DNA of 29,011 bases, from positions 1 through 29,011 of the forward strand of contig PRDJ01000022.1 in NCBI GenBank assembly GCA_003345555.1, read 5' to 3'. A program made the position numbers and the translations under genes. The stretch comes from Candidatus Thorarchaeota archaeon. GTDB taxonomy: Archaea; Asgardarchaeota; Thorarchaeia; Thorarchaeales; Thorarchaeaceae. The stretch's first letter is position 1. Every line of letters begins with the position of its first letter. Shown piece after piece: positions 4,044 through 26,401 of this stretch. The notes under the pieces were generated by a model, which had not been told where the DNA came from, made no database searches, and was given only the letters and a program-made list of their open reading frames with translations.

Positions 4044-5204
4044 TTGGTTCGGAAGTACAAAATCGCGGTGCTGCCGGGTGATGGAATAGGTAAGGAGGTC
4101 GTTCCACAGGCCGTCGAAGTCTTGGATGCAACCGAGAAAGCTGTCAACGGACTCAGATTCGAGAAGCACGAATTCGAGTGCGGGGGAGAGCATTACCTGA
4201 GAACCGGACGGGAATGGTCAGAGGAATCTGAGAACTTCGTCAAGAATGAAGCGGATGCGATATTGCTGGGCGCGGTTGGTGCAGTTGCCAACAACGGCGA
4301 ACAGGTGCGGCTTCCGGACGGCAACATGGCAGGATACAGCATCGTGATAGGGCTCAGAATGGCACTCGATCTGTATGCAAACGTACGTCCCGTGAGACTC
4401 TACGAAGGTGTGCCAACCCCGCTTGCTGACAAGGGGAGTAAGGACATTGACATGCTCATAGTGCGAGAGAACACTGAAGGATTGTACGCTCCGATTCGGG
4501 GATATTTGTCGAGAGGAGAAAGCAAGGAACTTGCCGTTGACGTGCGAATAATCACCAAGAAAGGTTCCGAGAGGATAGCGAGGTTTGCGTTTCGACAGGC
4601 GATGATGAGAGACGGTGCTCCAGTGGATAAGGTCAGAAGGGTAACGTGTGTCGACAAGAGCAACCTGCTCTCAGGATGCCAGCTTTTTAGACAGGTCTTC
4701 GACGAAGTCTCAGCAGAGTTTCCACAAGTACAGAGAGACTACTCGTATGTGGATGCCTGGACACAGTGGTGCCTGAGAAGACCAGAATACTATGATGTTG
4801 TGGTTGCTCCCAATGAGTTCGGTGACATAATCACGGACTTGGGAGCTGCAGTCCAAGGAGGGCTTGGAGTAGCCCCGGCCGGGAACATAGGCGAGAAGCA
4901 TGGCATGTTTGAGCCCGTCCACGGATCTTCTCCAAAGCACTATGGTCGGAATGAAGCCAATCCGATTGCTTCGATTCTTTCCGCAGGGATGATGCTGGAC
5001 TGGCTAGGCGCCACGCATCGTGATCGCAATTGCACTGAAGGCGGCAGACTCATTCGCGATGCGGTCGCGACGGTATTGAGAGATGCGAAGACTAGGACCT
5101 ATGATTTGTGCGTCGGCAAGTATGCGAAGGTGACGCCCTCGTCGACTCAAGCCGTTGCTGCAGCAGTTGCGGACGCAGTCGGAAAACAGGCGGCCAAGGG
5201 GTGA
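4044..5204 (+). CDS. Isocitrate/isopropylmalate/tartrate (beta-decarboxylating) dehydrogenase family protein, LeuB-like
   Basis: Motifs [44 protein letters not shown] and [17 protein letters not shown] precedes the TTG start. Confidence 0.95.
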
Positions 5205-5208
5205 GCCA

Positions 5209-6477
5209 GTGGGAAAGACACTCGCCGAGAAGATGCTCGCCACCCACACCGAGAAAGGAAAAGCTTCGGCTGGCGAAATCGTTGATGCATCCATTGACCT
5301 CTTGATGGTACACGAAGTCCTGGGTTCGAGGATAATTCCGATTCTGAAGGAGATGGGTGTCAAGAAGATCTGGGACCCGACCAAGGTGCTCGTTGTCAAC
5401 GACCATTGGGCTCCAGCGTCGGACACGCAGAGCGCGGAGATTCACATTAGGAATAGGCAGTTCGTGAAAGAGCAGGGTATAACACACTTCTGCGATGTGA
5501 ACTGTGGAATCTGTCATCAAGTATTGCCCGAGATGGGACTTGTCAAGCCAGGGGACCTCGTGATTGGGAGCGATTCTCATTCGACTACATATGGAGCATT
5601 CAATGCATTCTCAACGGGTCTGGCTGCGACAGACAGTGCCCTAATCTTGGCAACCGGGAAGTGCTGGTTCAGAGTTCCCGAATCGATGAAGATACGTATC
5701 AAAGGTCAACTGCCAGAAATGGTGATGAGCAAGGACCTGATACTGAAGATAGTAAGTGACCTCGGAGTCAATGGAGCCAACTATCGTTCGATTGAGTTTC
5801 ACGGACCCACTGTCGAATCCATGTCCGTCGCATCAAGAATGACCATGTGCAACATGACCGTCGAAGCCGGCGCGAAGTGTGGATTGATGATGGCCAATGA
5901 TGCAGTGAAGGAATGGGTCACAACTCGCAATCCCTCTGCTCAATGGACCCCCGTAGCACCTGACAAAGATGCTCACTATGTCGCAGATATTGACATTGAC
6001 CTAGACGCTGAACCTCTGGATCCAATCGTCGCCTTGCCCCACAGCCCAGCGAATGGCAAACCCGTCTCAGAGGTCGAGGGATTGCACGTAGATCAGGCCT
6101 TCATAGGTTCTTGTACCAATGGTCGTCTAGAAGATCTTGAGATAGCGGCCCGTATTCTGAAGGGAAGGAAAGTCCATCAAGACGTTCGCCTGATTATTAC
6201 CCCAGCCAGCCAGGAGACCTATGTCGATGCCCTAAGGGCAGGCTACATAGACACATTTCTCAGCGCTGGCGCGGTCTTTACTAACTCGACCTGTGGTGCT
6301 TGCATCGGGGGTCATCTGGGTGTGCTGGGACCGGGCGAAATCTGCATCTCAAGCACGAACAGAAACTTCAGGGGTCGGATGGGGCACCCCGATTCCAAGG
6401 TCTACCTCGCATCCCCCGCAACGGTTGCCGCCACTGCAGTGAAGGGAGTCATCACGGATCCTCGGAGGCTCATATGA
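5209..6477 (+). CDS. leuC: 3-isopropylmalate dehydratase / homoaconitase family large subunit (archaeal type, about 422 aa)
   Basis: MGKTLAEK start (GTG at 5209 after GGGGTGA; the ORF track extends it to 5155). Motifs GICHQ, DSHSTTYGA, FIGSCTNGR, CGACIGGH and STNRNFRGRMG; the three Fe-S Cys are present. Confidence 0.93.
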   Translation: MGKTLAEKMLATHTEKGKASAGEIVDASIDLLMVHEVLGSRIIPILKEMGVKKIWDPTKVLVVNDHWAPASDTQSAEIHIRNRQFVKEQGITHFCDVNCGICHQVLPEMGLVKPGDLVIGSDSHSTTYGAFNAFSTGLAATDSALILATGKCWFRVPESMKIRIKGQLPEMVMSKDLILKIVSDLGVNGANYRSIEFHGPTVESMSVASRMTMCNMTVEAGAKCGLMMANDAVKEWVTTRNPSAQWTPVAPDKDAHYVADIDIDLDAEPLDPIVALPHSPANGKPVSEVEGLHVDQAFIGSCTNGRLEDLEIAARILKGRKVHQDVRLIITPASQETYVDALRAGYIDTFLSAGAVFTNSTCGACIGGHLGVLGPGEICISSTNRNFRGRMGHPDSKVYLASPATVAATAVKGVITDPRRLI

Positions 6478-6992
6478 TGTCGACCAGTTTGAAACCAGTC
6501 CGTGGAAGGGCATGGCTCTTTGGCGATAATGTGGATACGGATCAAATCATCCAAGGGCGGTACCTGACCTTGCTCGACTACTCCGAGATGGCCAAGCATG
6601 CGTTTGAGATACCGAGACCAGAGTTTTCTCGAAATGTGAGGAAGAACGACATTGTCGTGGCAGGAAACAACTTCGGAGGAGGATCGTCCAGAGAGGAAGC
6701 TCCACGGGTACTGTCTCAGCTGGGTGTGGGTTGCGTCTTGGCCCAGTCGTTCGCCCGGCTCTTTTATCGCAATGCAATCAACATAGGGCTGCCCGTGCTC
6801 ATGATACCCAACGTGACGCACTCAGTCAATGACGGCATGACCTTGGATGTCAACATCATCAAGTCTGCTGTCATAATCAAGGAAACAGGCGAGACGCTAA
6901 GTGGACAACCACTGTCACGGATGGTGCTCGATATCCTCCAAGCGGGCGGCGCTGTAGCTTGGTTTCGCAAAGTGAAGGAATCCCGAAAGTAG
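6474..6992 (+). CDS. leuD: 3-isopropylmalate dehydratase / homoaconitase family small subunit
   Basis: Motifs GDNVDTDQII, AGNNFGGGSSREEA and SFARLFYRNAINIGL. The ATG at 6474 overlaps the leuC stop (ATGA) and follows GGAGG. Confidence 0.93.
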   Translation: MMSTSLKPVRGRAWLFGDNVDTDQIIQGRYLTLLDYSEMAKHAFEIPRPEFSRNVRKNDIVVAGNNFGGGSSREEAPRVLSQLGVGCVLAQSFARLFYRNAINIGLPVLMIPNVTHSVNDGMTLDVNIIKSAVIIKETGETLSGQPLSRMVLDILQAGGAVAWFRKVKESRK

Positions 6993-7100: not shown

Positions 7101-8876
7101 ATGAACGTCGTACTCTTCCTTCTGATTTCGCTATTGTTGCACTCAATACCAATCCCATTCTCTACCTCGATGCTGAGTCCGAAGAGGCTGATAAGGTGGC
7201 TTCCGTTCAGACTTGTCTGGGGGACAGTCGCTTGGATTGTGATATGTCTCGCCCTTGCCGAAACCCTGCCGTGGGCGATTCTAACATTGCTGCTCAGCTT
7301 CGGGATGCTTCTTGTTGTCTCAAGCGGCTTTCGTCCTAGACGGCTATGGGGTCTAGCGGACTCCGGAGTGAAGATGCCAATAATGTGCGTCGGATTCCTT
7401 CTCATCTTGGTCATACCATCGTTCTCCGGCATCATAGGTTGGACATCGGACGTTTCGAATGCCAGTTCTTTCAACTCTATGATTACTGCCGGGGAAGGGC
7501 CGTTGTTTTCATCACCCATCCCAGATGAAAAGGTGAGACTGGTGACTCAGGAATATGCAACATACGTCGCGAATCAGCATCTTTCGCCATTCGGGTCGAA
7601 TGTTCTGGTAGCATCAGCCCATATCACTACGCGACTGGGACGCCTTGTATGGGTCTGTACGATAGTATCATCGAACGTCCTCGCAGAGAACTTCCTGAAG
7701 GGATTCATCATTGTCGATGCCAACGACCCGCAGACAGTAAGCCCTGTTCTTATCAACCAGACCTCAATTCCGGTCGGAGAGGGATTGTTCTGGGATCGCA
7801 ACATACAGTTTGGCAACTATCTCAATGATATGTCCGCTAGTTACGAATACGCCTACCCCACGTGGGATCCCGTCGGCAATATGGTGTACGTGCAAACCCG
7901 AACACCCCTGAGCTTTGACTTTGTCGAACGTGCTATAGGGCCAGTCGTGTACTGCGAGAATGGAACTATAGTGAGCTATCCATCAATCGCTGACACGCCC
8001 AAGTGGATTACTCAGGCTTACGCTGAGGAGTGGTTAGAGCGGCAAGTCACCAGGTGGGGCAGCTACCGGAGAGGTACCGGCTTTGATCTCTTTGCAGGGG
8101 GCTTTCTCTGGTTCATCGCTCCATCCAACGAAAGACTCGAGATATCTGAGGACACGCGGTACATTCTGAATCCTGAAACCGACACCGTTGAAGCATTCAT
8201 CTGTGTTCATCCGGTAACAAGCTCCAGGGCTCTCGCGGGGATCTTCAGGGCCACCCACGATACAGTGTACTACTATGACATGAGTTCGTCTGGATACATT
8301 AGTGGTGAAGCTGCAAAGGCTAATGTCGTGTCTCAGTTGCCCCCACCTGCCACGGGCACGTACTATGGCGCCATGCCTCTGCTATATCCGGTTCAGATAA
8401 GTCCCTCGGAAACAAAGTGGACTTGGTACTGTCCGATCTACTGGGCAGACGGCGTTTACGATGACTCCGAATTCTATGTGTCAGATATGAGATTGCATGC
8501 GCTTGCTCTCGTAGACGCAGCGAATGTCGACAAGTTCTATATTCAGGAGTTAGGCGGCACACTTTCGGGGCCAAGCCTCGTCCAGGCAACACGGGAAGGT
8601 TACATAACAACTCTCGGAGGAACAGTGGAAGAGCCACAGGACACATTCGAGCTGACAGCTACTGTCGTTAACAAGACTCAGTACGTCGAAGGAGGCAATA
8701 CACACATCGTCCTAGGAACCAGCAATGCAACGTATGCGTACATTGAGGGTGCCCGGGCGTGGATGAACCTGAGCGATTGGTACACACTCTTGAACCTCAG
8801 CGTGAGTGACAACTTCACGGCCACTATTCACGTGGTAGAAGGGCAGTACCAGATAATCGCCATTGTCAAGAACTAG
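7101..8876 (+). CDS. Hypothetical membrane protein with N-terminal TM helices and a large extracytoplasmic domain
   Basis: 591-aa ORF with GGTGA SD, about 4 hydrophobic segments in the first 115 aa, then a Tyr/Trp/Thr-rich domain with N-x-S/T sequons. Confidence 0.85.
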   Translation: MNVVLFLLISLLLHSIPIPFSTSMLSPKRLIRWLPFRLVWGTVAWIVICLALAETLPWAILTLLLSFGMLLVVSSGFRPRRLWGLADSGVKMPIMCVGFLLILVIPSFSGIIGWTSDVSNASSFNSMITAGEGPLFSSPIPDEKVRLVTQEYATYVANQHLSPFGSNVLVASAHITTRLGRLVWVCTIVSSNVLAENFLKGFIIVDANDPQTVSPVLINQTSIPVGEGLFWDRNIQFGNYLNDMSASYEYAYPTWDPVGNMVYVQTRTPLSFDFVERAIGPVVYCENGTIVSYPSIADTPKWITQAYAEEWLERQVTRWGSYRRGTGFDLFAGGFLWFIAPSNERLEISEDTRYILNPETDTVEAFICVHPVTSSRALAGIFRATHDTVYYYDMSSSGYISGEAAKANVVSQLPPPATGTYYGAMPLLYPVQISPSETKWTWYCPIYWADGVYDDSEFYVSDMRLHALALVDAANVDKFYIQELGGTLSGPSLVQATREGYITTLGGTVEEPQDTFELTATVVNKTQYVEGGNTHIVLGTSNATYAYIEGARAWMNLSDWYTLLNLSVSDNFTATIHVVEGQYQIIAIVKN

Positions 8877-8880
8877 GAAC

Positions 8881-8903
8881 AAGGGGGTCTGCGGCCCCCC
8901 CTT
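8881..8903. terminator. GC-rich hairpin between convergent genes, followed by a pyrimidine tract
   Basis: AAGGGGG-tctgcggcc-CCCCCTT immediately after the 8876 stop, followed by CCTTCTCTTCTC. Confidence 0.5.
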
Positions 8904-8953
8904 CCTTCTCTTCTCAAGGATGAATATCACCCGACAGGTGACCTGCCGACTTT

Positions 8954-10117
8954 CTATAGCTCGAACTCCTTGAATACCTCACGCTGAATCAAGAATCTGA
9001 GAATTTCAGCTGTGCCTCCACCGATGGTCATCAGTCTTGCATCTCTGAGAAAGCGTTCCACCGGGTAGTCGGTTGTGTATCCTGAGCCGCCAAGTATCTG
9101 CAAAGCATCGTTTGTGATCTGTACGGCAGCCTCGGTCGTGTATAGCTTTGCGATTGAGGCCTGCTTCGTTGCCTTCATTCCTTTGTCCAGCATTCTAGCC
9201 GCATTCAGAGTCAATGCGCGGCCAGCCTCGAGCTTCATTGCCATGTCGGCGATTTTGAAACTGACTCCTTCGAACTCCCTGATTCGCTTCCCAAATTGCT
9301 GTCGTTCGTTTGCGTACTTGACAGCAGTCTCATATGGAATACGCGCGTAGCCTATTGCTTCGCCTGCTATGGCAGTCCGCTCGCTATCAAGCTCATCCAT
9401 CAGTATCTTGAAGCCTTGCCCTGGCGACCCAAGGACCATGTCAGGTGGAATACGAACACTATCCAACTTGAGCCACGATACTCTTGAGGATTTCATGCCC
9501 AGAAGGTCGTGGTCCTTGACCACACTGAAGCCACTAGTCTTTGTGTCCACGATAAATGCAGTCATACCGTTTCTCGGGTCCACGTTGGGGTCAGTTATTG
9601 CGAAACAGCATATGTAATCTGCCTGACTACCATTGGTGATGAACCTCTTTTCACCAGTGACGAACCAATCATCGCCATCCTGGACGGCGTGTGTCTTCAT
9701 CCCGGCAGTATCAGAGCCAACGTCAGGTTCGGTGATGCCAATGGCACCAACCTTGTCCCCACGGATAATGGGAGTAAGATACTTCTTCTTCTGTTCCGGA
9801 GTACCGAACTTGCCTACCGGCATACCGTAAAGGGTAGCAGAAGCCATCCTCGCCATGTCAAGGCCGCCGTTGCACCTGCTAATCTCCTCCGCAACTATGA
9901 TTTCATACGAGAGACCCCTAGCAGATCCGCCAGCGGCTTTCTCATGATGTACGCCCATGTAGCCTGCTTTGCCGATTTTCCGAATCAGATCCCTCGGATA
10001 GGGGCCCTTGTCAAGCTTGTCTGCGATAGGCGTGATTTCCTTGTCGCAAAAAGATCGTACTTCCTCACGGAACTTGATTTCGTCTTCTGTCCAGAAGGTC
10101 TTGCTGAGATAATCCAT
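8954..10117 (-). CDS. Acyl-CoA dehydrogenase (isovaleryl-CoA dehydrogenase-type active site)
   Basis: Motifs GAIGITEPDVGSD, GEKRFITNGS, ELDSER, RQQFGKRI, ALQILGGSGY, ERFLRDAR and IGGGT. The start could be ATG 10117 or the upstream GTG 10144. Confidence 0.95.
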   Translation of the reverse strand: MDYLSKTFWTEDEIKFREEVRSFCDKEITPIADKLDKGPYPRDLIRKIGKAGYMGVHHEKAAGGSARGLSYEIIVAEEISRCNGGLDMARMASATLYGMPVGKFGTPEQKKKYLTPIIRGDKVGAIGITEPDVGSDTAGMKTHAVQDGDDWFVTGEKRFITNGSQADYICCFAITDPNVDPRNGMTAFIVDTKTSGFSVVKDHDLLGMKSSRVSWLKLDSVRIPPDMVLGSPGQGFKILMDELDSERTAIAGEAIGYARIPYETAVKYANERQQFGKRIREFEGVSFKIADMAMKLEAGRALTLNAARMLDKGMKATKQASIAKLYTTEAAVQITNDALQILGGSGYTTDYPVERFLRDARLMTIGGGTAEILRFLIQREVFKEFEL

Positions 10118-10257
10118 GATGAACCGACCCGGTCCGGGGTTCACAATGGTGCCTTAAATCAGTAACTGGCTGAGCAGTCAGCGTCATCTTCTGACTGGGC
10201 CCCAATGCTCGATTTATTGCCGCTTGGCAACTCTGGAGCCGTCAAGAGCGAAATAGG

Positions 10258-10602
10258 CTACTCGGGTCTATGGCCCTCAGAAGCCTGTGGTGTGTATCGA
10301 TATCTCCCTTCACGATCCACGTAGACACTTGCTGCTCCACCTATGCGAACATGAGAGGTATCCTCTGTGTCACCGAGACACAAAACCATGCCCCCTTCGC
10401 TCAACTCGACAAGAACCAAGAGAAGAGGCGAGTTAAAACCCTCAGGAGGCATGTAGGACACTGTGTAACTTGCTACCTTCCCTTCTCCAGCCACAGCGAG
10501 ATGAATCGTCTCGCCGGCGCCCGGACCGCAGTATGGACAGATGTCTCTCGGAGGAACTACCGCACGGCCACACCTCTTGCACTTGGAGATATCTATTGTC
10601 AA
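10258..10602 (-). CDS. DUF35 / ChsH2-like zinc-ribbon + OB-fold protein (thiolase partner)
   Basis: CKRCG...PPRDICPYCG ribbon followed by the GKVASYTV...LVLVELSEG OB-fold; lies downstream of the thiolase-like gene. Confidence 0.9.
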   Translation of the reverse strand: MTIDISKCKRCGRAVVPPRDICPYCGPGAGETIHLAVAGEGKVASYTVSYMPPEGFNSPLLLVLVELSEGGMVLCLGDTEDTSHVRIGGAASVYVDREGRYRYTPQASEGHRPE

Positions 10603-10653
10603 TTCAAACAGCCGAACTTCGCCTACTCTTCGCTGGTCAAAAGAGTTGCCATT

Positions 10654-10797
10654 TCAATCTGCTTGGCATGCTATTGCCGTGCCTGAGCATATCGTCGTGA
10701 AGAACTCACACCAATAACCCTGAGATTCCTCTACAGATACGCGATTCTCTATCATACTGTTGAGGATCGAGAGGAATTGACACGAAGGCGTCATCAT
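10654..10797 (-). CDS. Small Cys-rich protein, 47 aa, below the ORF-track cutoff
   Basis: Manual translation gives MMTPSCQFLSILNSMIENRVSVEESQGYWCEFFTTICSGTAIACQAD*. The ATG overlaps the thiolase TGA (ATGA coupling) and the ORF fills most of the operon gap. Confidence 0.55.
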   Translation of the reverse strand: MMTPSCQFLSILNSMIENRVSVEESQGYWCEFFTTICSGTAIACQAD

Positions 10798-11957
10798 CTT
10801 CCGAAGATGCAGACTACCATGTTGTTGCCGAAGCCCCCGATATTGTGTGTCAAAGCAAACTCAGGACTCTTGACCTGAAGTCCTGCGGGAGCTTTTCCTC
10901 GGATTTGGAGAGCCACGTCTCGTATCTGTGCGACTCCGGTTGCCCCGGTGGGGTGTCCTCTTGCTTTTAGTCCCCCAGTGGTATTAACCGGTATGCGACC
11001 GCCAATGGCGGTCTCTCCTTGCTTGACTAAATCAATGGCGTGACCGGGCTTCACCAGTCCAACATCCTCCATGTCAATCAGCTCCAGAATCGAGAAAGCG
11101 TCATGTAGTTCACAGACATCGATGTCCTCAGGTCTCAGTCGGGCCATTTTGAATGCTTTTCCAGCAGCAGAAACAGTAGCATTCAGGGATGTGAGACATG
11201 GTCTGTGTTGAACCGCGTGATAGTCCGTAGCATGGCCCACTGCAAGAACCTTCACTGAGTCATCGGTACGACCAAGTGTCTTCGCAGCTTTGGAGGAAGC
11301 AACGATGACCGAAGCTGCACCATCGGAGGTTGGGGAACAATCATAGAGCGTGAGCGGGTCAGCTACCATCTTGGATGCGCTCACTTTCTCAAGAGCGATT
11401 TCTTCCCTGAAGTGCGCGAGCGGGTTCTTTGCTCCATTCTTGTGTGCCTTGACGGGAATGAGAGATAGGTCATCACGCGATAAACCATAATCATGCATGT
11501 ATCTTCGAGCGACAAGTGCCGCTAGGGCCGCGGGTGTTCCGCCTAGCTTTGCCTCGGAGTCAATTGAAATCATCTTGGCCAGAATCTTGGAAGCAGCGCC
11601 TCGATCGATTCCCGACATCTTCTCTACACCGATAACCAGCACAAGCTGGGCCAGCCCAGACTTGACAAGTGCCACTGCCTCCTCAAATGCGCTCGAACCA
11701 GCAGAAGGGCCGGTCTCCACTCTAGTGGCTCCGGCCGGCACAAGGCCGAGATGATCCGTTATCAGTGTAGAAAGATGACCTACTCCCGTGAACTCGTCAG
11801 GATTCTGACTTCCGACGAGGACATAATCGAACTTAGCGTCGAGAGCATTTGAATCTCGGATGGCCTCCAGCGCGGCAGACTTGGCGAGTTCCGTAATAGT
11901 CTCGTCCAGCGTGCCGAATTTTGTCATGCCAACGCCAGTGACATAGACCTGCTCCAA
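10794..11957 (-). CDS. Thiolase-fold protein, SCP2/archaeal type, lacking the canonical nucleophile Cys
   Basis: Motifs VTGVGMTKFG, GVEKM, CSPTSDGAAS, ELHDAF, NTTGGLKARGHPTGATG and THNIGG. The TTG start at 11957 follows GGAGGGA. Confidence 0.92.
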   Translation of the reverse strand: MEQVYVTGVGMTKFGTLDETITELAKSAALEAIRDSNALDAKFDYVLVGSQNPDEFTGVGHLSTLITDHLGLVPAGATRVETGPSAGSSAFEEAVALVKSGLAQLVLVIGVEKMSGIDRGAASKILAKMISIDSEAKLGGTPAALAALVARRYMHDYGLSRDDLSLIPVKAHKNGAKNPLAHFREEIALEKVSASKMVADPLTLYDCSPTSDGAASVIVASSKAAKTLGRTDDSVKVLAVGHATDYHAVQHRPCLTSLNATVSAAGKAFKMARLRPEDIDVCELHDAFSILELIDMEDVGLVKPGHAIDLVKQGETAIGGRIPVNTTGGLKARGHPTGATGVAQIRDVALQIRGKAPAGLQVKSPEFALTHNIGGFGNNMVVCIFGR

Positions 11958-11970
11958 TGGTCTCCCTCCT

Positions 11971-12504
11971 CTACTCAATCAACACAAGCAAATCTCCTAG
12001 TGCCACGACTGAACCTTTCTTGATGTTGACCTCTCTTACTTTGCCGCTTGACGGGGCTTTCAGTTCGTTAAACATCTTCATTGCTTCTAGGATGCACACA
12101 GTCTCCCCTGACCGGACTTCGTCACCGATTTTGACCTTCACTTCGGAAATCCTGCCGGGCATTGGAGGGTAGATACCTCCGCTGACTCTCTTTCCGCTCT
12201 TTGTGGTCGCGCCAGTCTTCTTTGCGTCCTCGTCTCTTCTTACGTGCTCCCAGTCAATCTCACGGGTCTCACCGTCGATTTCCAGAACGACTCTCTTGCC
12301 CGCTCTCTTGACAATCTTGACGTTGTGATGAAGTGAAGCATTGTCTACTGACCACGTTCCATCTTTCTTTAGGGATGGCTTCAGTGTGAAGGACTCATCC
12401 CCAACCTTCACCACCAACGCGCCCTCTTCGCTTGAAGGCCGCACTTCGACCTTGAAGTCCCTACCATCGGATTTGGCGGTATATTCCTCGCTCACCACAT
12501 TCAT
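11971..12504 (-). CDS. Biotin carboxyl carrier protein with an N-terminal beta-rich domain (about 177 aa)
   Basis: Biotinylation motif EAMKM in a C-terminal lipoyl/biotinyl domain (PPMPGRI...GKVREV). The ATG at 12504 overlaps the upstream stop (ATGA). Confidence 0.93.
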   Translation of the reverse strand: MNVVSEEYTAKSDGRDFKVEVRPSSEEGALVVKVGDESFTLKPSLKKDGTWSVDNASLHHNVKIVKRAGKRVVLEIDGETREIDWEHVRRDEDAKKTGATTKSGKRVSGGIYPPMPGRISEVKVKIGDEVRSGETVCILEAMKMFNELKAPSSGKVREVNIKKGSVVALGDLLVLIE

Positions 12505-14081
12505 CCCTGTTCGCGGCTCTTCATCAAATCCTTTCTTCCAGCCGACGCCCAAATAGAGGGGCTTCGCTCCCATCGACCGCGGGCGCTCTGGCCAGTCCTT
12601 CCTGTCACAATCTCCCCGACACCAGCCTCGGCCCATGCGCTGCCCGCTGCAGCACCGGGTTGCTCGAGAGCGGTTTGATGACTGCTCATATGAAGTACTG
12701 CCGCTATAACAGCAATGTCTTGTTCTATGTTGGTCTTGCCCTTTGACTGACTCTCAGATCTCCTCTTGAAGAATTCAAGCGCGTACTGCGGGAACAATGC
12801 GTATGAAACCTCATCTCGCGGGACATGTGGTATGTCTTTCAGTGCCTCACGAGCCTTCGGCAGCTCGGGTTCAAGCAAGTCAGCCGGTCTCACACTGAGG
12901 GGCTTTTCGTCACCTATGATGAGCTTCTTCACCTTGGGGTCGATTGGCGCAGGAGGTCTGCCATAGAACCCACGGACATACTGCTTGACCTCGTTCAGAA
13001 TTACCTTGTACCGTTCCCCCGTTACCACATTCATTGTGGCCTGTGCCCCAACGATTTGGCTTGAGGGAGTGACCAGTGGTGGATAGCCAAGTTCGGCCCT
13101 GACTCGTGGTACCTCCTTCAGAACCTCGTCATACCTGTCCAGTGCACCTTGTTCTCTGAGTTGGTTGTCCAGATTGGACAGCATCCCTCCAGGAATCTGA
13201 AACACCAGCACCTGCGGGTCAACGCCCTGTAAAGCTCCCTCGAACTTGGAGTACTTACCTCGAACCTTCTTGAAGTACTCTGCTATCTCCGCCAGCAGGG
13301 AGACATCTAGCCCTGTATCTCGAGGCGTACCCTTCAGTGCTTCAACAATCGACTCGGTCGGCGGCTGTGAAGTTGCCATTGCCAGAGAAGAGACTGCGCA
13401 GTCGACGACATCCACACCTGCATCCGCGGCTCTTAGGTATGCCATAGAGGCCATCCCGCTCGTGTAGTGTGTATGGAGCTGAACCGGAATGTCAATCTCT
13501 TCCTTCAATCTCGTTATGAGTTCGAAGGCTACTTGAGGGGAGATCAGACCGGCCATGTCTTTTATGCAGATAGAATCTGCGTCCATCGAGTATAGGGTCT
13601 TGGCATCCTCGACGAACTTCTCTATCGTGTGGAACGGGCTCAGCGTGTAACATATTGCCGCCTGAACATGACCGCCTTCGCGCTTCACGAAGCGCATCGC
13701 GGCCTCCATGTTACGAACATCGTTCAGTGCATCAAAAACCCTGAAAATGTCAAGTCCGGCTGTGACCGCCTCGACCACGAAAGCCTCAAGCACGTCATCT
13801 GCATAATTCCTGTAGCCTACAATATTCTGGGCCCGAAGTAACATCTGGAGCTTGGTATGGGGCAACGCGTCACGCAGGAGTTCAAGCCGCTCCCAGGGGT
13901 CTTCATCGAGAAAACGCATCATGGTATCGAAGGTGGCCCCGCCGAACATCTCAAGGGAATGATAACCCACCCTGTCCAGCTTCTCGCAAATGGGGATCAT
14001 GTCCTCTGTTTTCATCCTCGTGGCGAGAAGGGATTGATGAGCATCACGAAGAACGGTATCGGTTATTTCTAGGCGCGTCAT
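12501..14081 (-). CDS. Keto-acid carboxyltransferase (transcarboxylase 5S / oxaloacetate decarboxylase alpha / PycB CT domain), no fused biotin domain
   Basis: Motifs DTVLRDAHQSLLATRM, GGATFD, FRVFDALND, IKDMAGL, HTHYTSG, PGGMLSN and YPPLVTPSSQIVG. There is no MKM motif at the C-terminus. Confidence 0.95.
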   Translation of the reverse strand: MTRLEITDTVLRDAHQSLLATRMKTEDMIPICEKLDRVGYHSLEMFGGATFDTMMRFLDEDPWERLELLRDALPHTKLQMLLRAQNIVGYRNYADDVLEAFVVEAVTAGLDIFRVFDALNDVRNMEAAMRFVKREGGHVQAAICYTLSPFHTIEKFVEDAKTLYSMDADSICIKDMAGLISPQVAFELITRLKEEIDIPVQLHTHYTSGMASMAYLRAADAGVDVVDCAVSSLAMATSQPPTESIVEALKGTPRDTGLDVSLLAEIAEYFKKVRGKYSKFEGALQGVDPQVLVFQIPGGMLSNLDNQLREQGALDRYDEVLKEVPRVRAELGYPPLVTPSSQIVGAQATMNVVTGERYKVILNEVKQYVRGFYGRPPAPIDPKVKKLIIGDEKPLSVRPADLLEPELPKAREALKDIPHVPRDEVSYALFPQYALEFFKRRSESQSKGKTNIEQDIAVIAAVLHMSSHQTALEQPGAAAGSAWAEAGVGEIVTGRTGQSARGRWERSPSIWASAGRKDLMKSREQG

Positions 14082-14248
14082 GGTCAGCTGCTCCGAAGAA
14101 ACGTGCTCTATTTAGTCGTTCTGCTCGCACACACTGAGGGTGCGACAGAGTGGATGTCAATGGCTGCCGTCTTATATGTGACTGAAAAGCTAGGGAACTC
14201 CCCACAGAACCTAAACGCTATGTTTGAGCGTTCTGCCTTCTGGAAGAG

Positions 14249-14286
14249 AGAGGGCTCCGGTTAATCGAGTTGCGCCCGGAGCCTCT
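14249..14286. terminator. Stem-loop just downstream of the large surface-protein gene
   Basis: AGAG(G)GCTCCGG ... CCGGAGCCTCT, 10 bp beyond the stop at 14296. Confidence 0.4.
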
Positions 14287-14295
14287 TTGAAATGT

Positions 14296-17200
14296 CTACT
14301 TGAACTTCGTTGTCAGGTCACGAGGTTCGTATGGCTTTGCGCCCTTCCTTCCCCTGAAAACGGCCAACAAGGCGACTGCAAGGATAATCCCAGCAACAAC
14401 GTATCCGTTCATGAGGAAATTGAGGATGGCGGTGATGATATTCCCGGTTGGCGATGTGGAGGTTGTAGGTTGTGTGACCATAACCCACACAGTGTCTGTG
14501 ACTGCGTTGCCAGAGCTATCCCTCAAGGTGATCGTGTAGTTATACGCACCTGCACTCAAACCGTCAACATTGATCGTAATGACCTGTGACGGGTTTGTCC
14601 AAGCTGGTGCAGTGACCGGAGTGCCGTTTCTCAGAAGCTGTACTGTGCCGGGAGCTAGGTCATAGACGGTCCAAGAGAGTGTGTGACCAGTAGTGTTGGT
14701 TTCATACTCGAGATCGATAGGCGTCTGAGTCCAGACTGGTGACGTAGTATCCTCCACTGTGACAGTGAAGACTGCGGTCTGTGTGTTACCAAGAGTGTCA
14801 TTGACGTTCACTCGCAGTGCATAAGCTCCAACGGCCAGAGAAGTCTTGTTTGTAATCACGCCGGAGCCATCAACTGCGAAATGCACAGTATCGTTGATCC
14901 ACCAGGTACTGATGCTTGAGAAGTCAGTCGCATTGAGGTCATATCTAAGGCCCTTGCCCAACTCAATGATTTGGTCCGCTGGTGTCTGATCCCAAGTAGG
15001 TGCTGCACTGGGCTGCACTGTGATTTTGAAGGTGCTTGACAGAGTGTTTCCTTGTGTGTCATTCGCATATACCTGCAGCCAATATACACTGGCTGCCAAC
15101 ACAGTCGAGTTTGTGATAACGCCGTCTGCACTGATTGTGAAGTGTGTAGTGTCATTCACCCAATAATGATCGATGCCTGAAAGATCGGTCGCGTTGAGGT
15201 CATACCTGAAGCTGGAGCCTTCCTCAAACTCTTGGTCGACTGGAGCCTGCAACCAAGTAGGCGCAATAGTATCCTGCACAGTGACTTTGAAGGTCGCTGT
15301 CTGCACGTTACCTAGTCTGTCAGTAACATTCACCGTCAGTACGTAGACTTGGACCGACAGGGGGACTATGTTTGTGATGACACCTGCACTATCGATTACG
15401 AAGTTCGTTGTGTCGTTAATCCACCAGCTGCCAATACCCGAGAAGTCAGTGGCATTCAGGTCATATCTGAAGTTGTTGCCAAATTCAATGACTTGGTCAG
15501 TTGGTACTTGGCTCCACGTAGGTGGTGCACTGGGCTGCACTGTGACAGTGAAGTTGGCACTAATGGTGTTGCTCAGGTTGTTGGTGACATTGACCATCAA
15601 TGGATAAGTTCCAACCGCAAGACCAGTCTTGTTTGTGACAACTCCATTTGAATCGATGTCGAAGTTGGTTGTGTCATTCAGCCACCAGCTAGCAATGCCT
15701 GATGGGTGTGAAGCATTCAAATGATACCTGAAAGCATCTCCGAACTCGATTGTTTGGTCCGTGGGAACTTGGTCCCATACCGGCATGCTAGTGTCGCGCG
15801 AATTGATCCGGAATGTTCCTGAGAGCACTAATCCATGATTGTCAGTAACGTCAACCCGGATTCCGTACACCCTTATAGAAAGGGAGGAGATGTTCGTTAT
15901 TATGCCAGAAGAATCAATCTGGAAATTGACCGTATCATTGATCCACCAACCAAAAATGCCGGATACGTCTGAAGCATTGAGGTCGTATCTGAACGGGTTC
16001 CGAAAGTCTGTCTCTTGATCAACAGGAACTTGGTCCCACGCTGGAGGTATTGTGTCTTGGACAATCACGTTGAATGTGCCTATCAGCGGGATGCCCTCGC
16101 CATCGTATACGTGGACTTCCAGACCATAGACACCGACTGCCAATGAGACCGTGTTCGTGATTACACCCGCACCATCGATTACGAAGTTCGTAGTGTCGTT
16201 TATCCACCAACTATCGATGCCTGAAAGATCGGTGGCATTAAGGTCATACCTAAACGAGCTGCCGAATTCAATCGTCTGGTCAACTGGGACCTGCACCCAA
16301 GAAGGTGGTGTGGTGTCTCGTACTGTCACCGTGAAGGTTCCAGTGAGTACATTGCCATTAACGTCCGTTGCGTTGACCCTGACAGGGTATGGCCCCACCG
16401 AGATGAATGTCGCGTTCCTGACGATACCGTCGATATCAATACTGAAGTGTTCTGTATCGTTTATCCACCAAGATACAGTTCCTGAGAGATCCGTCGCGTT
16501 CAAGTCGTATCTGAACGCCGTACCAAGCTCCGTTATCTGGTCAACTGGTACCTGAACCCACGCAGGGTCAACCGTGTCAAGGACAGCTAGCTTGAAGGTT
16601 CCACTAAGAATATTGCCTTGGCCATCGGTTGCATTCACTCTAACGTGATAGACTCCGACTGCGATGTTTGTTGCATTTCTGACTATCCCGTTGCCATCGA
16701 CAGCGAAATGTGCCGTGTCGTTGACCCACCAGCCCGCAATCCCGGACAGGTCAGTGGCGTTCAAGTCGTATCGGAAGACGGTACCGAGCTCGATTGTCTG
16801 GTCAACGGGGACCTCCACCCACATGGGGGCGGTTGTGTCGCGCACCGTCACTTTGAAAGTCCCGCTTAGAGTATTGCCATAGCCATCAGTTGCATTTACC
16901 CTGATGCCGTGAACACCAACCACAAGATTCGTAGCATTTCTGATAATACCGCTCCCATCTATTGAGAATCGACCTGTGTCATTTATCCACCACGTCACTC
17001 CCGAGAGGTCAGTTGCGTTCAAGTCATACCTGAAGGCAGTACCAAACTCGATTGTCTGATCAACCGGTGCCTGAACCCAAGCAGGAGGCTTGGTATCCCG
17101 AACAGTAACTCTGAAAGTCGCGCTGAGGATATTGCTGTGACTGTCAGTTGCATTCACTCTAAGACCGTATACGCCCACAGCAAGATTGGTGGCGTTTCTG

Positions 17201-24741: not shown

Positions 24742-26289
24742 TTACAACGGTATGTTGCCATGTTTCTTCGGGGGTCTGCTCTGCCTCTTGCTAGCTAGCA
24801 TCTCTAGTCCTTTGCATATGAGCGGTCGCGTCTCATGCGGGAAGATTACCTTGTCAATGTACCCAAGCTCTGCAGCAATGTACGGGTTAGCGAACTTGTC
24901 CCTGTATTCCTTGACGAGTTCGATACGTCGCTTCTCCTTGTTCTTCGCCTCGTCGATTTCCTTGCGAAATATGATGTTGATGGCACCGTCTGGACCCATA
25001 ACAGCTATTTCTGAAGTGGGCCACGCATAGACTAGGTCTGCACCGATATGCTTGCTGCTCATCACGTCGTATGCGCCGCCATAGGCCTTGCGAGTGATGA
25101 TCGTAATCTTGGGAACTGTTGCTTCACTGAAGGCGTAGAGGATTTTGGCCCCGTGTCGGATTATGCCGCCCCACTCCTGTGTGGTCCCCGGGAGATAACC
25201 TGGCACATCCATGAACGTAATGATAGGAATGTTGAATGCATCACAAAACCTGACGAAACGAGAGCACTTGTCCGAGGCATCGATGTCAATTGTACCAGCT
25301 AAGTGAGCTGGCTGGTTGCCGACGATTCCCACCGAACGTCCGTCGAAACGAGCAAAGCCAACTATCATGTTCTTGGCCCAGTGCTCGTGGACCTCGAAGA
25401 ACTCACCGTTGTCGACTACCTTGGTTACGACATCACGCATGTCGTAAGGCTTGTTGGGGTCATCCGGCACTACTTCATCGACAGATGAATCTACGTTGTC
25501 AGGGGCGTGGCCAGTATTCACGCGAGGAGGCTCCTCAAGATTGTTGCTTGGCATATAGCTCAGAAGCTTGCGTATCTGGCCAATGCATTCGTCCTCATTT
25601 TCACTGGCAAAGCTGGCGACGCCTGAAATTGAATTGTGGGTCATTGCGCCGCCCAGCTCCTCTTGTGTGACTTCCTCACCCGTGACTGTCTTGATAACGT
25701 CAGGCCCTGTGATGAACATGTATGAACTGTTCTTGACCATTAGCGTGAAATCAGTGACCGCGGGGCTATAGACAGCTCCACCTGCACATGGACCCATAAT
25801 CGCTGAAATCTGAGGGATTACTCCACTGGCAATTGTGTTTCGATAGAAAATCCACGCATAGCTTGCCAGTGCCTTGACGCCCTCTTGGACTCTCGCACCT
25901 GCGCCATCGTTCAACCCTATGACCGCCGCGCCCGTCTCCATCGCAAGATCCATGACCTTGCAGATTTTCAGACCATACATCTCAGACAAGGAACCACCGA
26001 AGACCGTGAAGTCTTGGCTGAAGATGTACACCTTTCTCCCGTCGATAGTACCATAGCCTGTAACTACGCCATCGCCAAGTATCTTCTTCTTCTCCATGCC
26101 GAAGTCGGTGCAACGGTGTGCCACGAATTCGTCAAGCTCTACGAAAGACCCTGCATCAAGCAGCTTCTCGATCCTTTCACGCGCCGTATACTTACCGGCC
26201 TCATGTTGCTTCGTGATTCGCTCTTCGCCGCCGCCGAGCTTGGATTCGTCGCGTTTCTTCCGAAGTTGCTCAAACCTGTCATCTGGCAT
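24742..26289 (-). CDS. Acyl-CoA carboxyltransferase beta subunit (PccB / MmdA / transcarboxylase 12S type)
   Basis: Motifs [70 protein letters not shown] and [14 protein letters not shown] 26289 follows AGGTGA (the ORF track starts at GTG 26301). Confidence 0.96.
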
Positions 26290-26401
26290 GGAATGTCTCA
26301 CCTAATGTGCTCTAAAGACGTACTAGCTTGGCATATGGAGTTGGTTTTGAACATTCTGGCTGAACTCCGGAGAGACGAATGATGAATAGATATCGCCGCT
26401 T

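What the first reader, a model, noticed from the sequence alone, without database searches (positions are those of the whole stretch)
8954..14081. One co-oriented cluster joins biotin carboxyl transfer to Cys-less thiolase/DUF35 and a branched-chain ACAD
Seen: the order 5S-like, BCCP (ATGA overlap), thiolase-like (13-bp gap), 47-aa ORF (ATGA overlap), DUF35, ACAD. Inference: a pathway for a branched acyl-CoA comprising dehydrogenation, carboxyl transfer with oxaloacetate/pyruvate as donor or acceptor, and retro-aldol C-C cleavage. It is analogous to leucine or acyclic isoprenoid catabolism but ATP-sparing. I do not know this gene combination from a described pathway, and the substrate cannot be read from the sequence.
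Basis: inference. Interest (0 to 1): 0.7.

Follow-up and report, generated by a model that had tools for sequence, protein, structure and literature searches.

The report
Transcarboxylase operon with cysteine-less thiolase
In Thorarchaeota (Asgard archaea) the genes of an ATP-independent methylmalonyl-CoA:pyruvate transcarboxylase are fused into one conserved gene string with a thiolase look-alike that has lost its catalytic cysteine, its small DUF35 partner and an isovaleryl-CoA-dehydrogenase-type flavoenzyme; the parts are known kinds, but the role of the cysteine-less thiolase in propionate/methylmalonyl-CoA metabolism is new and untested.

Summary
The window comes from a Thorarchaeota MAG.

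**What is conserved**
- 5S-BCCP-thiolase-like is a fixed trio in about 32 of 36 family genomes (16 genera). Where sequences were read, the gene gaps are 2-22 nt.
- The 12S carboxyltransferase (window 24742-26301) lies upstream on the same strand in at least 22 genomes, and directly adjacent in some.
- DUF35-ACAD follow downstream, but are often separated from the trio by inserted, unrelated genes.

**The carboxyl-transfer genes**
- No biotin carboxylase or OadB was found in the genome (93% complete).
- It does have methylmalonyl-CoA mutase, MeaB and epimerase.
- So 12S+5S+BCCP is a methylmalonyl-CoA:pyruvate transcarboxylase. This was already inferred for Asgard archaea (PMC7015854).

**The thiolase-like protein**
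- It has Pro at the nucleophile position in all orthologs.
- It keeps the oxyanion-hole motifs (HDAF, GHP).
- It lacks the YDxF tyrosine of the steroid retro-aldolases.
- It belongs to an archaeal clade with no nucleophile Cys; PDB 4YZO appears to be of this type.

**A second, independent link to the pathway**
- In another Asgard order no acyl-CoA carboxyltransferase was found in any of 11 genomes.
- There the same protein sits in a thiolase-THL*-DUF35-mutase operon.

**Best reading:** a non-thiolytic enzyme acting on methylmalonyl-/propionyl-CoA, most likely a biotin-independent decarboxylase. The reaction is inferred, not shown. The leucine-like, retro-aldol reading is weakly supported.

The parts
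24742..26301 (-). 12S-type acyl-CoA carboxyltransferase (MmdA/PccB-like). It lies outside the finding but is part of the same system.
   Evidence: PF01039 at 671 bits, and the only such hit in the genome. NCBIfam mmdA subfamily at 880 bits. It is upstream of 5S on the same contig and strand in at least 22 family genomes, and directly adjacent in G006, G021, G030, L003 and L004.
12501..14081 (-). 5S-like keto-acid carboxyltransferase with no biotin domain. The last 70 residues or so fall outside the family models.
   Evidence: HMGL-like + PYC_OADA. NCBIfam PycB/OadA/5S models cover residues 1-457. The sequence holds the RDAHQS, KDMAG and HTH motifs. Orthologs are 68-92% identical across the family.
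11971..12504 (-). Free biotin carboxyl carrier protein (1.3S equivalent), translationally coupled to 5S by an ATGA overlap.
   Evidence: Biotin_lipoyl at 67 bits; residues 52-177 align to the C-terminal part of PycB. EAMKM biotinylation motif. It is a separate ORF in all 30 related loci, so the split is not a frameshift.
10794..11957 (-). THL*: an SCP2/archaeal-type thiolase homolog with Pro84 in place of the nucleophilic Cys, and HDAF in place of HDCF.
   Evidence: Thiolase_N + Thiolase_C_1. Alignment to 6ESQ, 7YVY and 4YZO. E[TS]GPS[SA]G is invariant in about 30 orthologs, while both paralogs in the same genome keep Cys. Active-site loops are invariant even against 45%-identical homologs.
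10654..10797 (-). 47-aa ORF, probably not a gene.
   Evidence: No family hit. No significant tblastn hit in 32 related loci. Only the last 69 nt or so before DUF35 are conserved with the nearest relative, at DNA level (84%).
10258..10602 (-). Short DUF35 protein (zinc ribbon + OB fold, no N-terminal helix), the presumed partner of THL*.
   Evidence: OB_ChsH2_C + zf-ChsH2. Orthologs all start 3-9 residues before the CxxC. Each of the three thiolase homologs of the genome has its own DUF35 downstream.
8954..10144 (-). Acyl-CoA dehydrogenase with an IVD-type catalytic base. The likely true start is the ATG at 10117.
   Evidence: Three ACAD domains. 'SER' + 'IGGGT' match isovaleryl-CoA dehydrogenase 4KTO ('YER' + 'IGAGT'), not Bcd/SCAD ('GGR' + 'IYEGT'). 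Orthologs are 77-90% identical and always lie downstream of DUF35, directly or with one small unknown ORF between (L005, L027, L028).

Best explanation
The cluster is the remnant of an ancestral Thorarchaeota gene string, 12S -> 5S -> BCCP -> THL* -> DUF35 -> ACAD.

**Transcarboxylase.** 12S, 5S and the free BCCP form a biotin-dependent but ATP-independent methylmalonyl-CoA:pyruvate (propionyl-CoA:oxaloacetate) transcarboxylase. It works with the genome's methylmalonyl-CoA mutase/MeaB/epimerase operon. A Cat1/ScpC-type CoA transferase found in close relatives would complete a succinate <-> propionate route.

**THL*/DUF35.** The thiolase-like protein cannot perform thiolysis, because its nucleophile is Pro. 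It keeps the CoA-thioester pocket and the His/His oxyanion hole, so it can still bind an acyl-CoA and stabilise its enolate. With its DUF35 partner I propose that it acts on the same pool of methylmalonyl-/propionyl-CoA. The most likely activity is a biotin-independent (methyl)malonyl-CoA decarboxylase, analogous to Cys-to-Gln ketosynthases and to the trypanosomal SCP2-thiolase-like protein.

**ACAD.** The IVD-type ACAD is a conserved companion of DUF35. Its substrate is not identified.

**Shown:** gene identities, motifs, conserved linkage and genome content.
**Inferred:** the transcarboxylase activity (about 0.8), that THL* is non-thiolytic (about 0.8), that THL* is functionally tied to the methylmalonyl-CoA pathway (about 0.55), and the decarboxylase reaction itself (about 0.25).
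For: **Transcarboxylase**
- 12S, 5S and BCCP all lie in the window.
- The 5S has its catalytic motifs and the BCCP has EAMKM.
- No biotin carboxylase and no OadB were found in the 93%-complete genome.
- The genome has the mutase, MeaB, the B12 subunit and the epimerase, and a biotin ligase.
- Other Asgard genomes carry MCM-MCE-12S-5S-BCCP or MCE-12S-5S-BCCP clusters.

**Linkage**
- The 5S and THL* orthologs sit about 550 nt apart on one strand in about 32 of 36 family genomes from 16 genera. In the loci read, a BCCP fills that space.
- 12S is collinear upstream in at least 22 genomes.

**THL***
- Pro at the nucleophile position is invariant, and the other active-site loops are invariant.
- The paralogs with Cys serve the HMGCS and beta-oxidation clusters.

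**Independent second link**
- In the order of G052, none of 11 genomes (one complete) has a PF01039 carboxyltransferase.
- Ten of the 11 have a mutase with the Tyr/Arg methylmalonyl signature.
- THL*-DUF35 sits directly upstream of that mutase in G052, G062 and G063.
- In G060, THL* lies 1.4 kb from the mutase.

**Precedent for decarboxylation by a Cys-less SCP2-type thiolase**
- TbSLP, as cited in PMC12329534.
Against: - No assay exists. The decarboxylase idea rests on analogy and on gene neighbourhood.
- TbSLP's activity is very low (kcat 0.005 per s), and the Cys-less Sal showed none.
- A soluble decarboxylase next to a transcarboxylase acting on the same substrate looks redundant.
- Pro-type homologs outside Asgard archaea lie in unrelated contexts.
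- Asgard genomes such as G048 and G058 have the full 12S-5S-BCCP-MCE-MCM set without THL*.
- In the order that lacks carboxyltransferases, a crotonase-type (YgfG-like) decarboxylase was not excluded.
- DUF35-ACAD are separated from THL* by unrelated genes in many relatives.
- In G020 and G029 a giant ORF lies directly upstream of THL*, and 5S was not found in those 81-88% complete assemblies.
Confidence: 0.4

Rival explanations
1. First reader's pathway. An IVD-like ACAD desaturates a branched acyl-CoA. The biotin system carboxylates the product using oxaloacetate as donor. THL*/DUF35 then cleaves a hydrated intermediate by a retro-aldol reaction, giving an ATP-sparing analogue of leucine or isoprenoid catabolism.
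For: - The ACAD has the IVD-type catalytic base.
- THL* lacks Cys and pairs with DUF35, as the Ltp2/Sal aldolases do.
- The carboxyl transfer is ATP-independent.
- Enoyl-CoA hydratases exist elsewhere in the genome.
Against: - The aldolase catalytic Tyr (YDHF/YDCY) is His in all orthologs.
- The only acyl-CoA carboxyltransferase is MmdA/PccB-type, and in Asgard relatives it clusters with epimerase and mutase.
- No HMG-CoA-lyase-family protein other than 5S is present.
- In another order THL* is linked to methylmalonyl-CoA mutase with no carboxyltransferase in the genome at all.
Confidence: 0.1
2. THL*/DUF35 is a non-catalytic acyl-CoA-binding scaffold. Like DUF35 in the thiolase/HMGCS complex and in the Sulfolobus fatty-acid-synthase complex, it recruits other enzymes (ACAD, a true thiolase, or the transcarboxylase) to channel propionyl-/methylmalonyl-CoA.
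For: - DUF35 is a documented assembly mediator (bioRxiv 10.1101/2024.07.05.601840).
- The only position that distinguishes the Pro-type members of the Cys-free clade from Cys-type thiolases is the nucleophile itself, so no new catalytic residue is evident.
- A canonical thiolase precedes THL* in the G052 and G063 operons.
Against: - The oxyanion-hole and substrate loops stay invariant down to 45% identity. This is unusual for a purely structural pseudoenzyme.
- No partner is identified.
Confidence: 0.2
3. There is no shared function. A transcarboxylase module and a THL*/DUF35/ACAD acyl-CoA module are merely juxtaposed in Thorarchaeota and inherited together.
For: - Outside this family the two modules are unlinked.
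- Insertions have repeatedly split the string.
- G020 and G029 keep THL*...DUF35-ACAD without a detectable 5S.
Against: - Gaps of 13-22 nt between BCCP and THL*, held across the loci read from 16 genera at 62-90% protein identity, argue for co-transcription under selection.
- A second, independent linkage of THL* to the same pathway exists: the mutase operon.
Confidence: 0.2
4. THL* is still an acyl-transferring enzyme. It uses the neighbouring conserved Ser85 (or another residue) as nucleophile, as Ser-dependent KAS III-like enzymes do, and so acts as a modified thiolase or acyltransferase.
For: - Ser follows Pro84 in all Thorarchaeota orthologs (GPS[SA]G).
- The sister sequences in the clade have Ser at the nucleophile position itself.
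Against: - Ser85 is not conserved across the Pro-type clade: G052 and several representatives read GPASG.
- Pro occupies the nucleophilic-elbow position.
- No thiolase that uses a Ser one residue out of register is known to me.
Confidence: 0.1

Closest known systems
Methylmalonyl-CoA carboxytransferase (transcarboxylase, 12S/5S/1.3S) of Propionibacterium, and the transcarboxylase-type propionate route inferred for Asgard archaea (PMC7015854)
   Same: - Three separate genes: an MmdA/PccB-type 12S, a 5S without a biotin domain, and a free small BCCP.
- No biotin carboxylase or membrane decarboxylase subunit in the genome.
- Mutase and epimerase are present.
   Different: - The BCCP is longer (177 aa).
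- The 5S carries an extra C-terminal tail of about 70 aa.
- The operon continues, with a 13-nt gap, into a Cys-less thiolase homolog.
Archaeal ketothiolase/DUF35 pairs (M. thermolithotrophicus thiolase/HMGCS/DUF35, PDB 6ESQ/6ET9; S. acidocaldarius KT/DUF35 fatty-acid-synthase complex, bioRxiv 10.1101/2024.07.05.601840)
   Same: - Same thiolase subfamily (251-286 bits to 6ESQ and 7YVY).
- Same gene order, thiolase then DUF35.
- Several pairs per Asgard genome.
   Different: - The nucleophilic Cys is replaced by Pro.
- DUF35 is a short form.
- The neighbours are biotin enzymes and an ACAD, not HMGCS, SDR or MaoC.
ST0096 of Sulfolobus tokodaii (PDB 4YZO), a thiolase-like protein of unknown function
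   Same: - 230 bits over the full length.
- It also lacks the nucleophile Cys (Ser in the aligned position).
- A representative with the same nucleophile-loop motif (P0206) falls in the same Cys-free clade. 4YZO itself was not in the tree.
   Different: - Ser rather than Pro.
- No known link to biotin enzymes.
- No function has been assigned.
Steroid side-chain retro-aldolases Ltp2 and Sal with a DUF35 domain partner (PMC12329534)
   Same: - SCP2-thiolase fold without the nucleophilic Cys.
- Dependence on a DUF35 partner.
   Different: - The catalytic Tyr of YDHF/YDCY is His (HDAF).
- DUF35 is free-standing rather than fused to a MaoC hydratase.
- The organism is an archaeon with no steroid pathway context.
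Trypanosoma brucei SCP2-thiolase-like protein (TbSLP) and Cys-to-Gln ketosynthases (KSQ/CLF)
   Same: - A thiolase-superfamily protein that lacks the nucleophile but keeps the oxyanion holes.
- Weak malonyl-thioester decarboxylase activity has been reported for it. This is the mechanistic model for the proposal here.
   Different: - TbSLP has YDCF, and no DUF35 partner is known for it.
- KSQ acts on ACP esters.
- No activity data exist for THL*.

Membership tests
Methylmalonyl-CoA:pyruvate transcarboxylase (EC 2.1.3.1) | 12S acyl-CoA carboxyltransferase subunit of the methylmalonyl/propionyl type | tested here: met
   PF01039 at 671 bits; NCBIfam mmdA subfamily at 880 bits. It is the only such gene in the genome.
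Methylmalonyl-CoA:pyruvate transcarboxylase (EC 2.1.3.1) | 5S keto-acid carboxyltransferase without a fused biotin domain, with metal and carbamyl-Lys motifs | tested here: met
   HMGL-like + PYC_OADA. The family models end at about residue 457. RDAHQS, KDMAG and HTH are present.
Methylmalonyl-CoA:pyruvate transcarboxylase (EC 2.1.3.1) | Separate small biotin carrier with the A-M-K-M motif | tested here: met
   177-aa ORF with EAMKM. It is a separate ORF in all related loci.
Methylmalonyl-CoA:pyruvate transcarboxylase (EC 2.1.3.1) | No ATP-dependent biotin carboxylase and no Na+-pumping beta subunit that would make it a carboxylase or decarboxylase | tested here: met
   PF02785 and PF03977 were not found in the 93%-complete genome, and the controls gave hits. 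Absence from an incomplete MAG is not proof.
Methylmalonyl-CoA:pyruvate transcarboxylase (EC 2.1.3.1) | Carboxyl transfer between methylmalonyl-CoA and pyruvate | not testable with these tools
   Needs an enzyme assay.
Thiolase (SCP2 / archaeal ketothiolase type) | Nucleophilic Cys in the N-terminal catalytic loop | tested here: not met
   Cys of 6ESQ and 7YVY aligns to Pro84. Pro is found in all of about 30 orthologs.
Thiolase (SCP2 / archaeal ketothiolase type) | Acid/base Cys of the HDCF motif | tested here: not met
   HDAF in all orthologs. Some Cys-bearing archaeal thiolases (7YVY) also read HDAF, so this alone is not decisive.
Thiolase (SCP2 / archaeal ketothiolase type) | Oxyanion-hole His residues (HDxF His and GHP His) and the GG loop | tested here: met
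   H285, H335 and G374-G375 are invariant.
Ltp2/Sal steroid side-chain retro-aldolases | Catalytic Tyr in the YDHF/YDCY motif | tested here: not met
   The motif is HDAF. Motif definition from PMC12329534.
Ltp2/Sal steroid side-chain retro-aldolases | Loss of the nucleophilic Cys and dependence on a DUF35 partner | tested here: met
   Pro84. A DUF35 gene lies downstream in this window and in 13 related loci, some with inserted genes between. Physical binding was not shown.
Isovaleryl-CoA dehydrogenase-type ACAD | Catalytic Glu on helix G, with Gly at the MCAD-Glu376 position | tested here: met
   'SER' + 'IGGGT' against 4KTO 'YER' + 'IGAGT'. Bcd/SCAD read 'GGR' + 'IYEGT'.
Isovaleryl-CoA dehydrogenase-type ACAD | Closest overall similarity to characterised IVDs, and isovaleryl-CoA as substrate | tested here: inconclusive
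   Scores to Bcd/SCAD (276-284 bits) and to IVD (262-272 bits) are about equal. The substrate was not tested.

The most novel reading that the evidence does not exclude
The Pro/Ser-type Cys-less thiolase homologs with their DUF35 partners are a new class of biotin-independent (methyl)malonyl-CoA-processing enzymes in archaea. They would supply the missing methylmalonyl-CoA -> propionyl-CoA step in Asgard lineages that have the mutase but no carboxyltransferase. Alternatively they use the decarboxylation-derived enolate for C-C bond formation. In Thorarchaeota they would then be wired directly to an ATP-free transcarboxylase.
Probability: 0.2. Interest if true: 0.75.

Novelty: new variant of a known kind. 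Interest (0 to 1): 0.55.

Why it matters
Asgard archaea are the closest known relatives of eukaryotes, and their energy metabolism is known almost only from genome inference.

This locus gives a concrete, family-wide operon for ATP-free carboxyl transfer in propionate metabolism. It also singles out a conserved thiolase-fold protein that cannot be a thiolase, although databases annotate it as 'acetyl-CoA acetyltransferase'. Metabolic reconstructions that count it as a thiolase, whether for butyrate, beta-oxidation or fatty-acid synthesis, are probably wrong on this gene.

If THL*/DUF35 proves to be a methylmalonyl-CoA decarboxylase or a related enolate-forming enzyme, two things follow:
- a pathway gap closes in lineages that have the mutase but no carboxyltransferase;
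- a new activity is added to the thiolase superfamily and to the widespread, uncharacterised clade around PDB 4YZO.

Tried and rejected
- **Frameshift splitting one PycB-like gene into 5S and BCCP.** Rejected. Both are separate, full-length ORFs in all 30 related loci.
- **47-aa ORF as a gene or as the N-terminus of DUF35** (same frame, separated by a TGA). Rejected. It has no homolog, and DUF35 orthologs start where the window's does.
- **THL* as the missing methylmalonyl-CoA epimerase.** Rejected as unnecessary. A canonical epimerase lies next to the mutase.
- **The THL*-linked mutase as an isobutyryl-CoA mutase.** Rejected. It scores 670-694 bits to MCM against 339-371 to IcmF, and it has the RQY[AS]GF and GYH[IM]REAG signatures. 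The meaning of those signatures is from my own knowledge.
- **A clade-specific new catalytic residue in THL*.** None found. Only the nucleophile position separates the Pro-type members of the Cys-free clade from Cys-type thiolases.
- **Complex prediction of THL* + DUF35 with ACAD as partner.** The verdict was 'no answer' (score 0.00). This is evidence neither for nor against binding.
- **Context look-ups of six Pro-type homologs from metagenomes.** One contig was too short. The others gave diverse neighbourhoods with no recurrent methylmalonyl-CoA pathway gene; one had a biotin ligase nearby.
- **Literature searches.** No paper describes this gene combination or a function for 4YZO.
- **Bacterial promoter/terminator scan.** Not run, because the organism is an archaeon.

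Full report
**1. Observation**

The window is contig C22 of a 2.28-Mb MAG that is 93% complete. Its close relatives are deposited as Candidatus Thorarchaeota.

On the minus strand lie six ORFs:
- a 526-aa 5S/PycB/OadA-like carboxyltransferase without a biotin domain (12501-14081);
- a 177-aa BCCP, starting in an ATGA overlap (11971-12504);
- a 387-aa thiolase homolog, starting at a TTG 13 nt after the BCCP stop (10794-11957);
- a 47-aa ORF in an ATGA overlap with the thiolase stop (10654-10797);
- a 114-aa DUF35 protein (10258-10602);
- a 396-aa acyl-CoA dehydrogenase (8954-10144).

The 5S has the RDAHQS, KDMAG and HTH motifs, and the BCCP has EAMKM.

The 47-aa ORF is the exception.
- It has no family hit and no homolog in 32 related loci.
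- It lies where the two same-genus relatives have about 700 nt instead of 192.
- Only the last 69 nt before DUF35 are conserved with the nearest relative, at DNA level.
- Although it shares a frame with DUF35, all DUF35 orthologs start just before the zinc ribbon, as the window's does.

I treat it as a chance ORF in a remnant spacer.

**2. A sixth gene belongs to the system**

The only PF01039 acyl-CoA carboxyltransferase of the genome lies in the same window, on the same strand, at 24742-26301. It is of the MmdA/PccB (12S) type, at 880 bits.
- No biotin carboxylase and no OadB-type membrane subunit were found, while the control genomes gave hits.
- The genome has a B12-subunit/MeaB/methylmalonyl-CoA mutase/epimerase operon on C14 and a biotin ligase.
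- A Cat1/ScpC-type CoA transferase is present in four close relatives but was not found in this assembly.
- In other Asgard genomes, MCM, MCE, 12S, 5S and BCCP lie in one co-oriented cluster (G048), or MCE, 12S, 5S and BCCP do (G060).

This identifies 12S+5S+BCCP as a methylmalonyl-CoA:pyruvate transcarboxylase of the methylmalonyl-CoA pathway. Imachi et al. already inferred such a route for Asgard archaea from the same three gene types (PMC7015854). This part is therefore not new.

**3. Conservation of the linkage**

Among 36 genomes of the same family (16 genera), an ortholog of the thiolase homolog (62-90% identity) is present in 35. A 5S ortholog is present in 33.
- In about 32 genomes the two lie about 550 nt apart on one strand. 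In the loci I read, a BCCP fills that space.
- In 30 loci read in detail, the order is always 5S, BCCP, thiolase homolog, with gaps of 2-22 nt.
- The 12S gene is upstream on the same contig and strand in at least 22 genomes, at distances from 17 nt to 24 kb. It is directly adjacent in G006, G021, G030, L003 and L004.

DUF35 and ACAD lie in that order, adjacent or with one small ORF between them, in all 13 loci where they are seen.
- They follow the thiolase homolog directly in L005, L010, L027 and L028, and after a small unknown gene in L002.
- They follow after 3-8 kb elsewhere.
- The inserts are an ArsR-like protein, giant surface proteins, an Arf-like GTPase and small unknown genes.

The simplest history is an ancestral string, 12S-5S-BCCP-THL*-DUF35-ACAD, repeatedly broken by insertions.

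There are two exceptions. In G020 and G029 a giant ORF abuts THL*, and no 5S was found in those 81-88% complete assemblies, while DUF35-ACAD remain 3 kb downstream.

Outside the family, transcarboxylase genes and THL* homologs are unlinked.

**4. The thiolase homolog (THL*)**

Its best solved relatives are archaeal DUF35-dependent thiolases (7YVY at 286 bits, 6ESQ at 251 bits) and ST0096 of S. tokodaii (4YZO, 230 bits).
- The nucleophilic Cys of 7YVY and 6ESQ aligns to Pro84.
- HDCF of 6ESQ reads HDAF.
- E[TS]GPS[SA]G, HDAF, GHPxGxTG and NIGGFGN are essentially invariant in about 30 orthologs.

The two paralogs in the same genome keep Cys.
- One follows HMG-CoA synthase.
- The other sits in a 3-hydroxyacyl-CoA dehydrogenase/enoyl-CoA hydratase cluster.
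- Each has its own DUF35.

Among 150 representatives of sequence space, 86 of the 149 sequences aligned (full-length representatives plus added orthologs and paralogs) have Cys at the nucleophile position.
- All Pro-type sequences fall, together with Ser- and Thr-type ones, in one clade of 37 leaves that contains no Cys. Root support is only 0.40.
- The clade includes P0206, whose nucleophile-loop motif matches that of 4YZO.
- Some Ser-type members of about 500 aa carry weak, sub-threshold DUF35 matches at the C-terminus. These are possible fusions.
- The only position that separates the Pro-type members of this clade from Cys-type thiolases is the nucleophile itself.
- The other catalytic loops stay invariant even against 45%-identical homologs.

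Hence THL* is not a decaying pseudogene. It is a conserved protein with an intact CoA-ester pocket and oxyanion hole but no thiolytic nucleophile.

THL* has His there, so that family's defining feature is not met.

**5. An independent link to the methylmalonyl-CoA pathway**

Pro-type homologs (45% identity) occur in two other Asgard lineages.
- In G052, G062 and G063 (two genera) the operon is canonical thiolase, THL*, DUF35, methylmalonyl-CoA mutase, with overlapping stop and start codons.
- In the complete genome G064 the two genes lie 5.9 kb apart on one strand.
- In G060, THL* lies 1.4 kb from a convergent mutase gene.

The mutases score as MCM rather than IcmF. They carry the Tyr/Arg signature (RQY[AS]GF, GYH[IM]REAG) that, to my knowledge, marks methylmalonyl-CoA specificity.

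None of the 11 genomes of that order has any PF01039 carboxyltransferase, yet 10 have the mutase. Something else must therefore convert methylmalonyl-CoA there, and THL*/DUF35 is the operon-linked candidate.

There is a chemical precedent. A thiolase-fold protein without the nucleophile but with the two oxyanion-hole residues can decarboxylate malonyl thioesters. TbSLP does so, as cited. Cys-to-Gln ketosynthases do as well, from my own knowledge.

I therefore propose a biotin-independent (methyl)malonyl-CoA decarboxylase, or more generally an enolate-forming enzyme on this substrate pool. My confidence in the specific reaction is about 0.25. My confidence in a functional tie to the pathway is about 0.55.

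Points against:
- TbSLP's activity is marginal, and Sal has none.
- A decarboxylase beside a transcarboxylase seems redundant.
- Pro-type homologs in non-Asgard archaea lie in unrelated contexts.
- A crotonase-type decarboxylase was not excluded.

**6. The ACAD**

Overall it is equally close to butyryl-CoA/short-chain dehydrogenases and to isovaleryl-CoA dehydrogenases.

Its catalytic-base geometry is the IVD type.
- It has Glu in 'SER' on helix G and 'IGGGT' near the C-terminus, as in 4KTO ('YER', 'IGAGT').
- Bcd and SCAD read 'GGR' and 'IYEGT'.

A leucine-type route is unlikely.
- 5S is the only HMGL-like protein in the genome.
- The single carboxyltransferase is propionyl/methylmalonyl-type.

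ETF and enoyl-CoA hydratases exist elsewhere in the genome.

**7. Transcription**

The overlaps and short gaps make 5S-BCCP-THL* one unit.
- A hairpin (14253-14283) follows the upstream giant gene.
- A TAAATA box lies about 30 nt before the 5S start (read by eye).
- The 192-nt spacer before DUF35, with its conserved 69 nt, may hold a further promoter.
- So may the 113-140-nt spacer before ACAD, which has an ATTTAAGG box about 38 nt upstream of the ATG at 10117.

'One operon' is therefore not established for all five genes.

**8. Verdict**

- The cluster is real and conserved.
- Its carboxyl-transfer part is a known kind, already inferred in Asgard archaea.
- The KT/DUF35 pairing is a known kind.
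- The fixed fusion of a transcarboxylase operon with a Cys-to-Pro thiolase homolog is not described in the literature I could search. Nor is the recurrent linkage of that homolog to methylmalonyl-CoA mutase.

I rate it a new variant of a known kind, with moderate interest.

A complex prediction for THL*+DUF35+ACAD gave no answer and is not used as evidence.

Noticed in passing
window 4044-6992 (+), whole genome: The window carries isopropylmalate/homoisocitrate-dehydrogenase-like and aconitase-family large and small subunit genes. Yet the only HMGL-like (LeuA/homocitrate/citramalate synthase family) hit in the 93%-complete genome is the 5S subunit itself. The condensing enzyme that should feed these genes was not found.
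   Followed up: partly
L006:9385-12406, L007:6675-14405, L011:3889-11224, L013:2005-9762: In many Thorarchaeota a cassette sits between the thiolase homolog and DUF35-ACAD. It holds an ArsR-like 388-aa protein, a giant (>2000 aa) surface protein, an Arf-like small GTPase and two small unknown proteins. The window instead has giant Ig-repeat proteins between 12S and 5S. This metabolic locus appears to be a hotspot for insertion of surface-protein genes.
   Followed up: partly
L029 (CAVSBO010000004.1), 8001-16400: The nearest relative (90% identity) shows apparent frameshifts in at least five genes of the syntenic region: thiolase homolog, ACAD, the 591-aa unknown, aconitase large subunit and dehydrogenase. 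This looks like an assembly error pattern rather than biology.
   Followed up: no
window 7101-8876 (+): A 591-aa protein with no Pfam or NCBIfam hit is conserved (58-86% identity). It is always convergent to the ACAD gene, in 10 related loci.
   Followed up: no
window 12501-12710 (-): The 5S protein extends about 70 residues beyond all PycB/OadA/5S family models. The tail is retained in orthologs, whose matches run to residue 519-526.
   Followed up: no
window 14253-14283 (-): A perfect 8-bp GC-rich inverted repeat (GGCTCCGG...CCGGAGCC), followed by a CT-rich run, lies just after the stop of the 1675-aa surface protein gene and about 170 nt before the 5S start. It is terminator-like.
   Followed up: no
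L086:3154-6034: In a metagenomic contig with haloarchaeal-type regulators, a Pro-type thiolase homolog + DUF35 pair lies about 700 nt from a divergently oriented biotin protein ligase gene, with one LON-domain ORF between them.
   Followed up: no
P0127, P0140, P0144 (representative proteins): Ser-type Cys-less thiolase homologs of about 500-540 aa carry a C-terminal extension. In two of the three checked it gives weak, sub-threshold DUF35 OB-fold matches. These are possible natural fusions of the two partners.
   Followed up: partly
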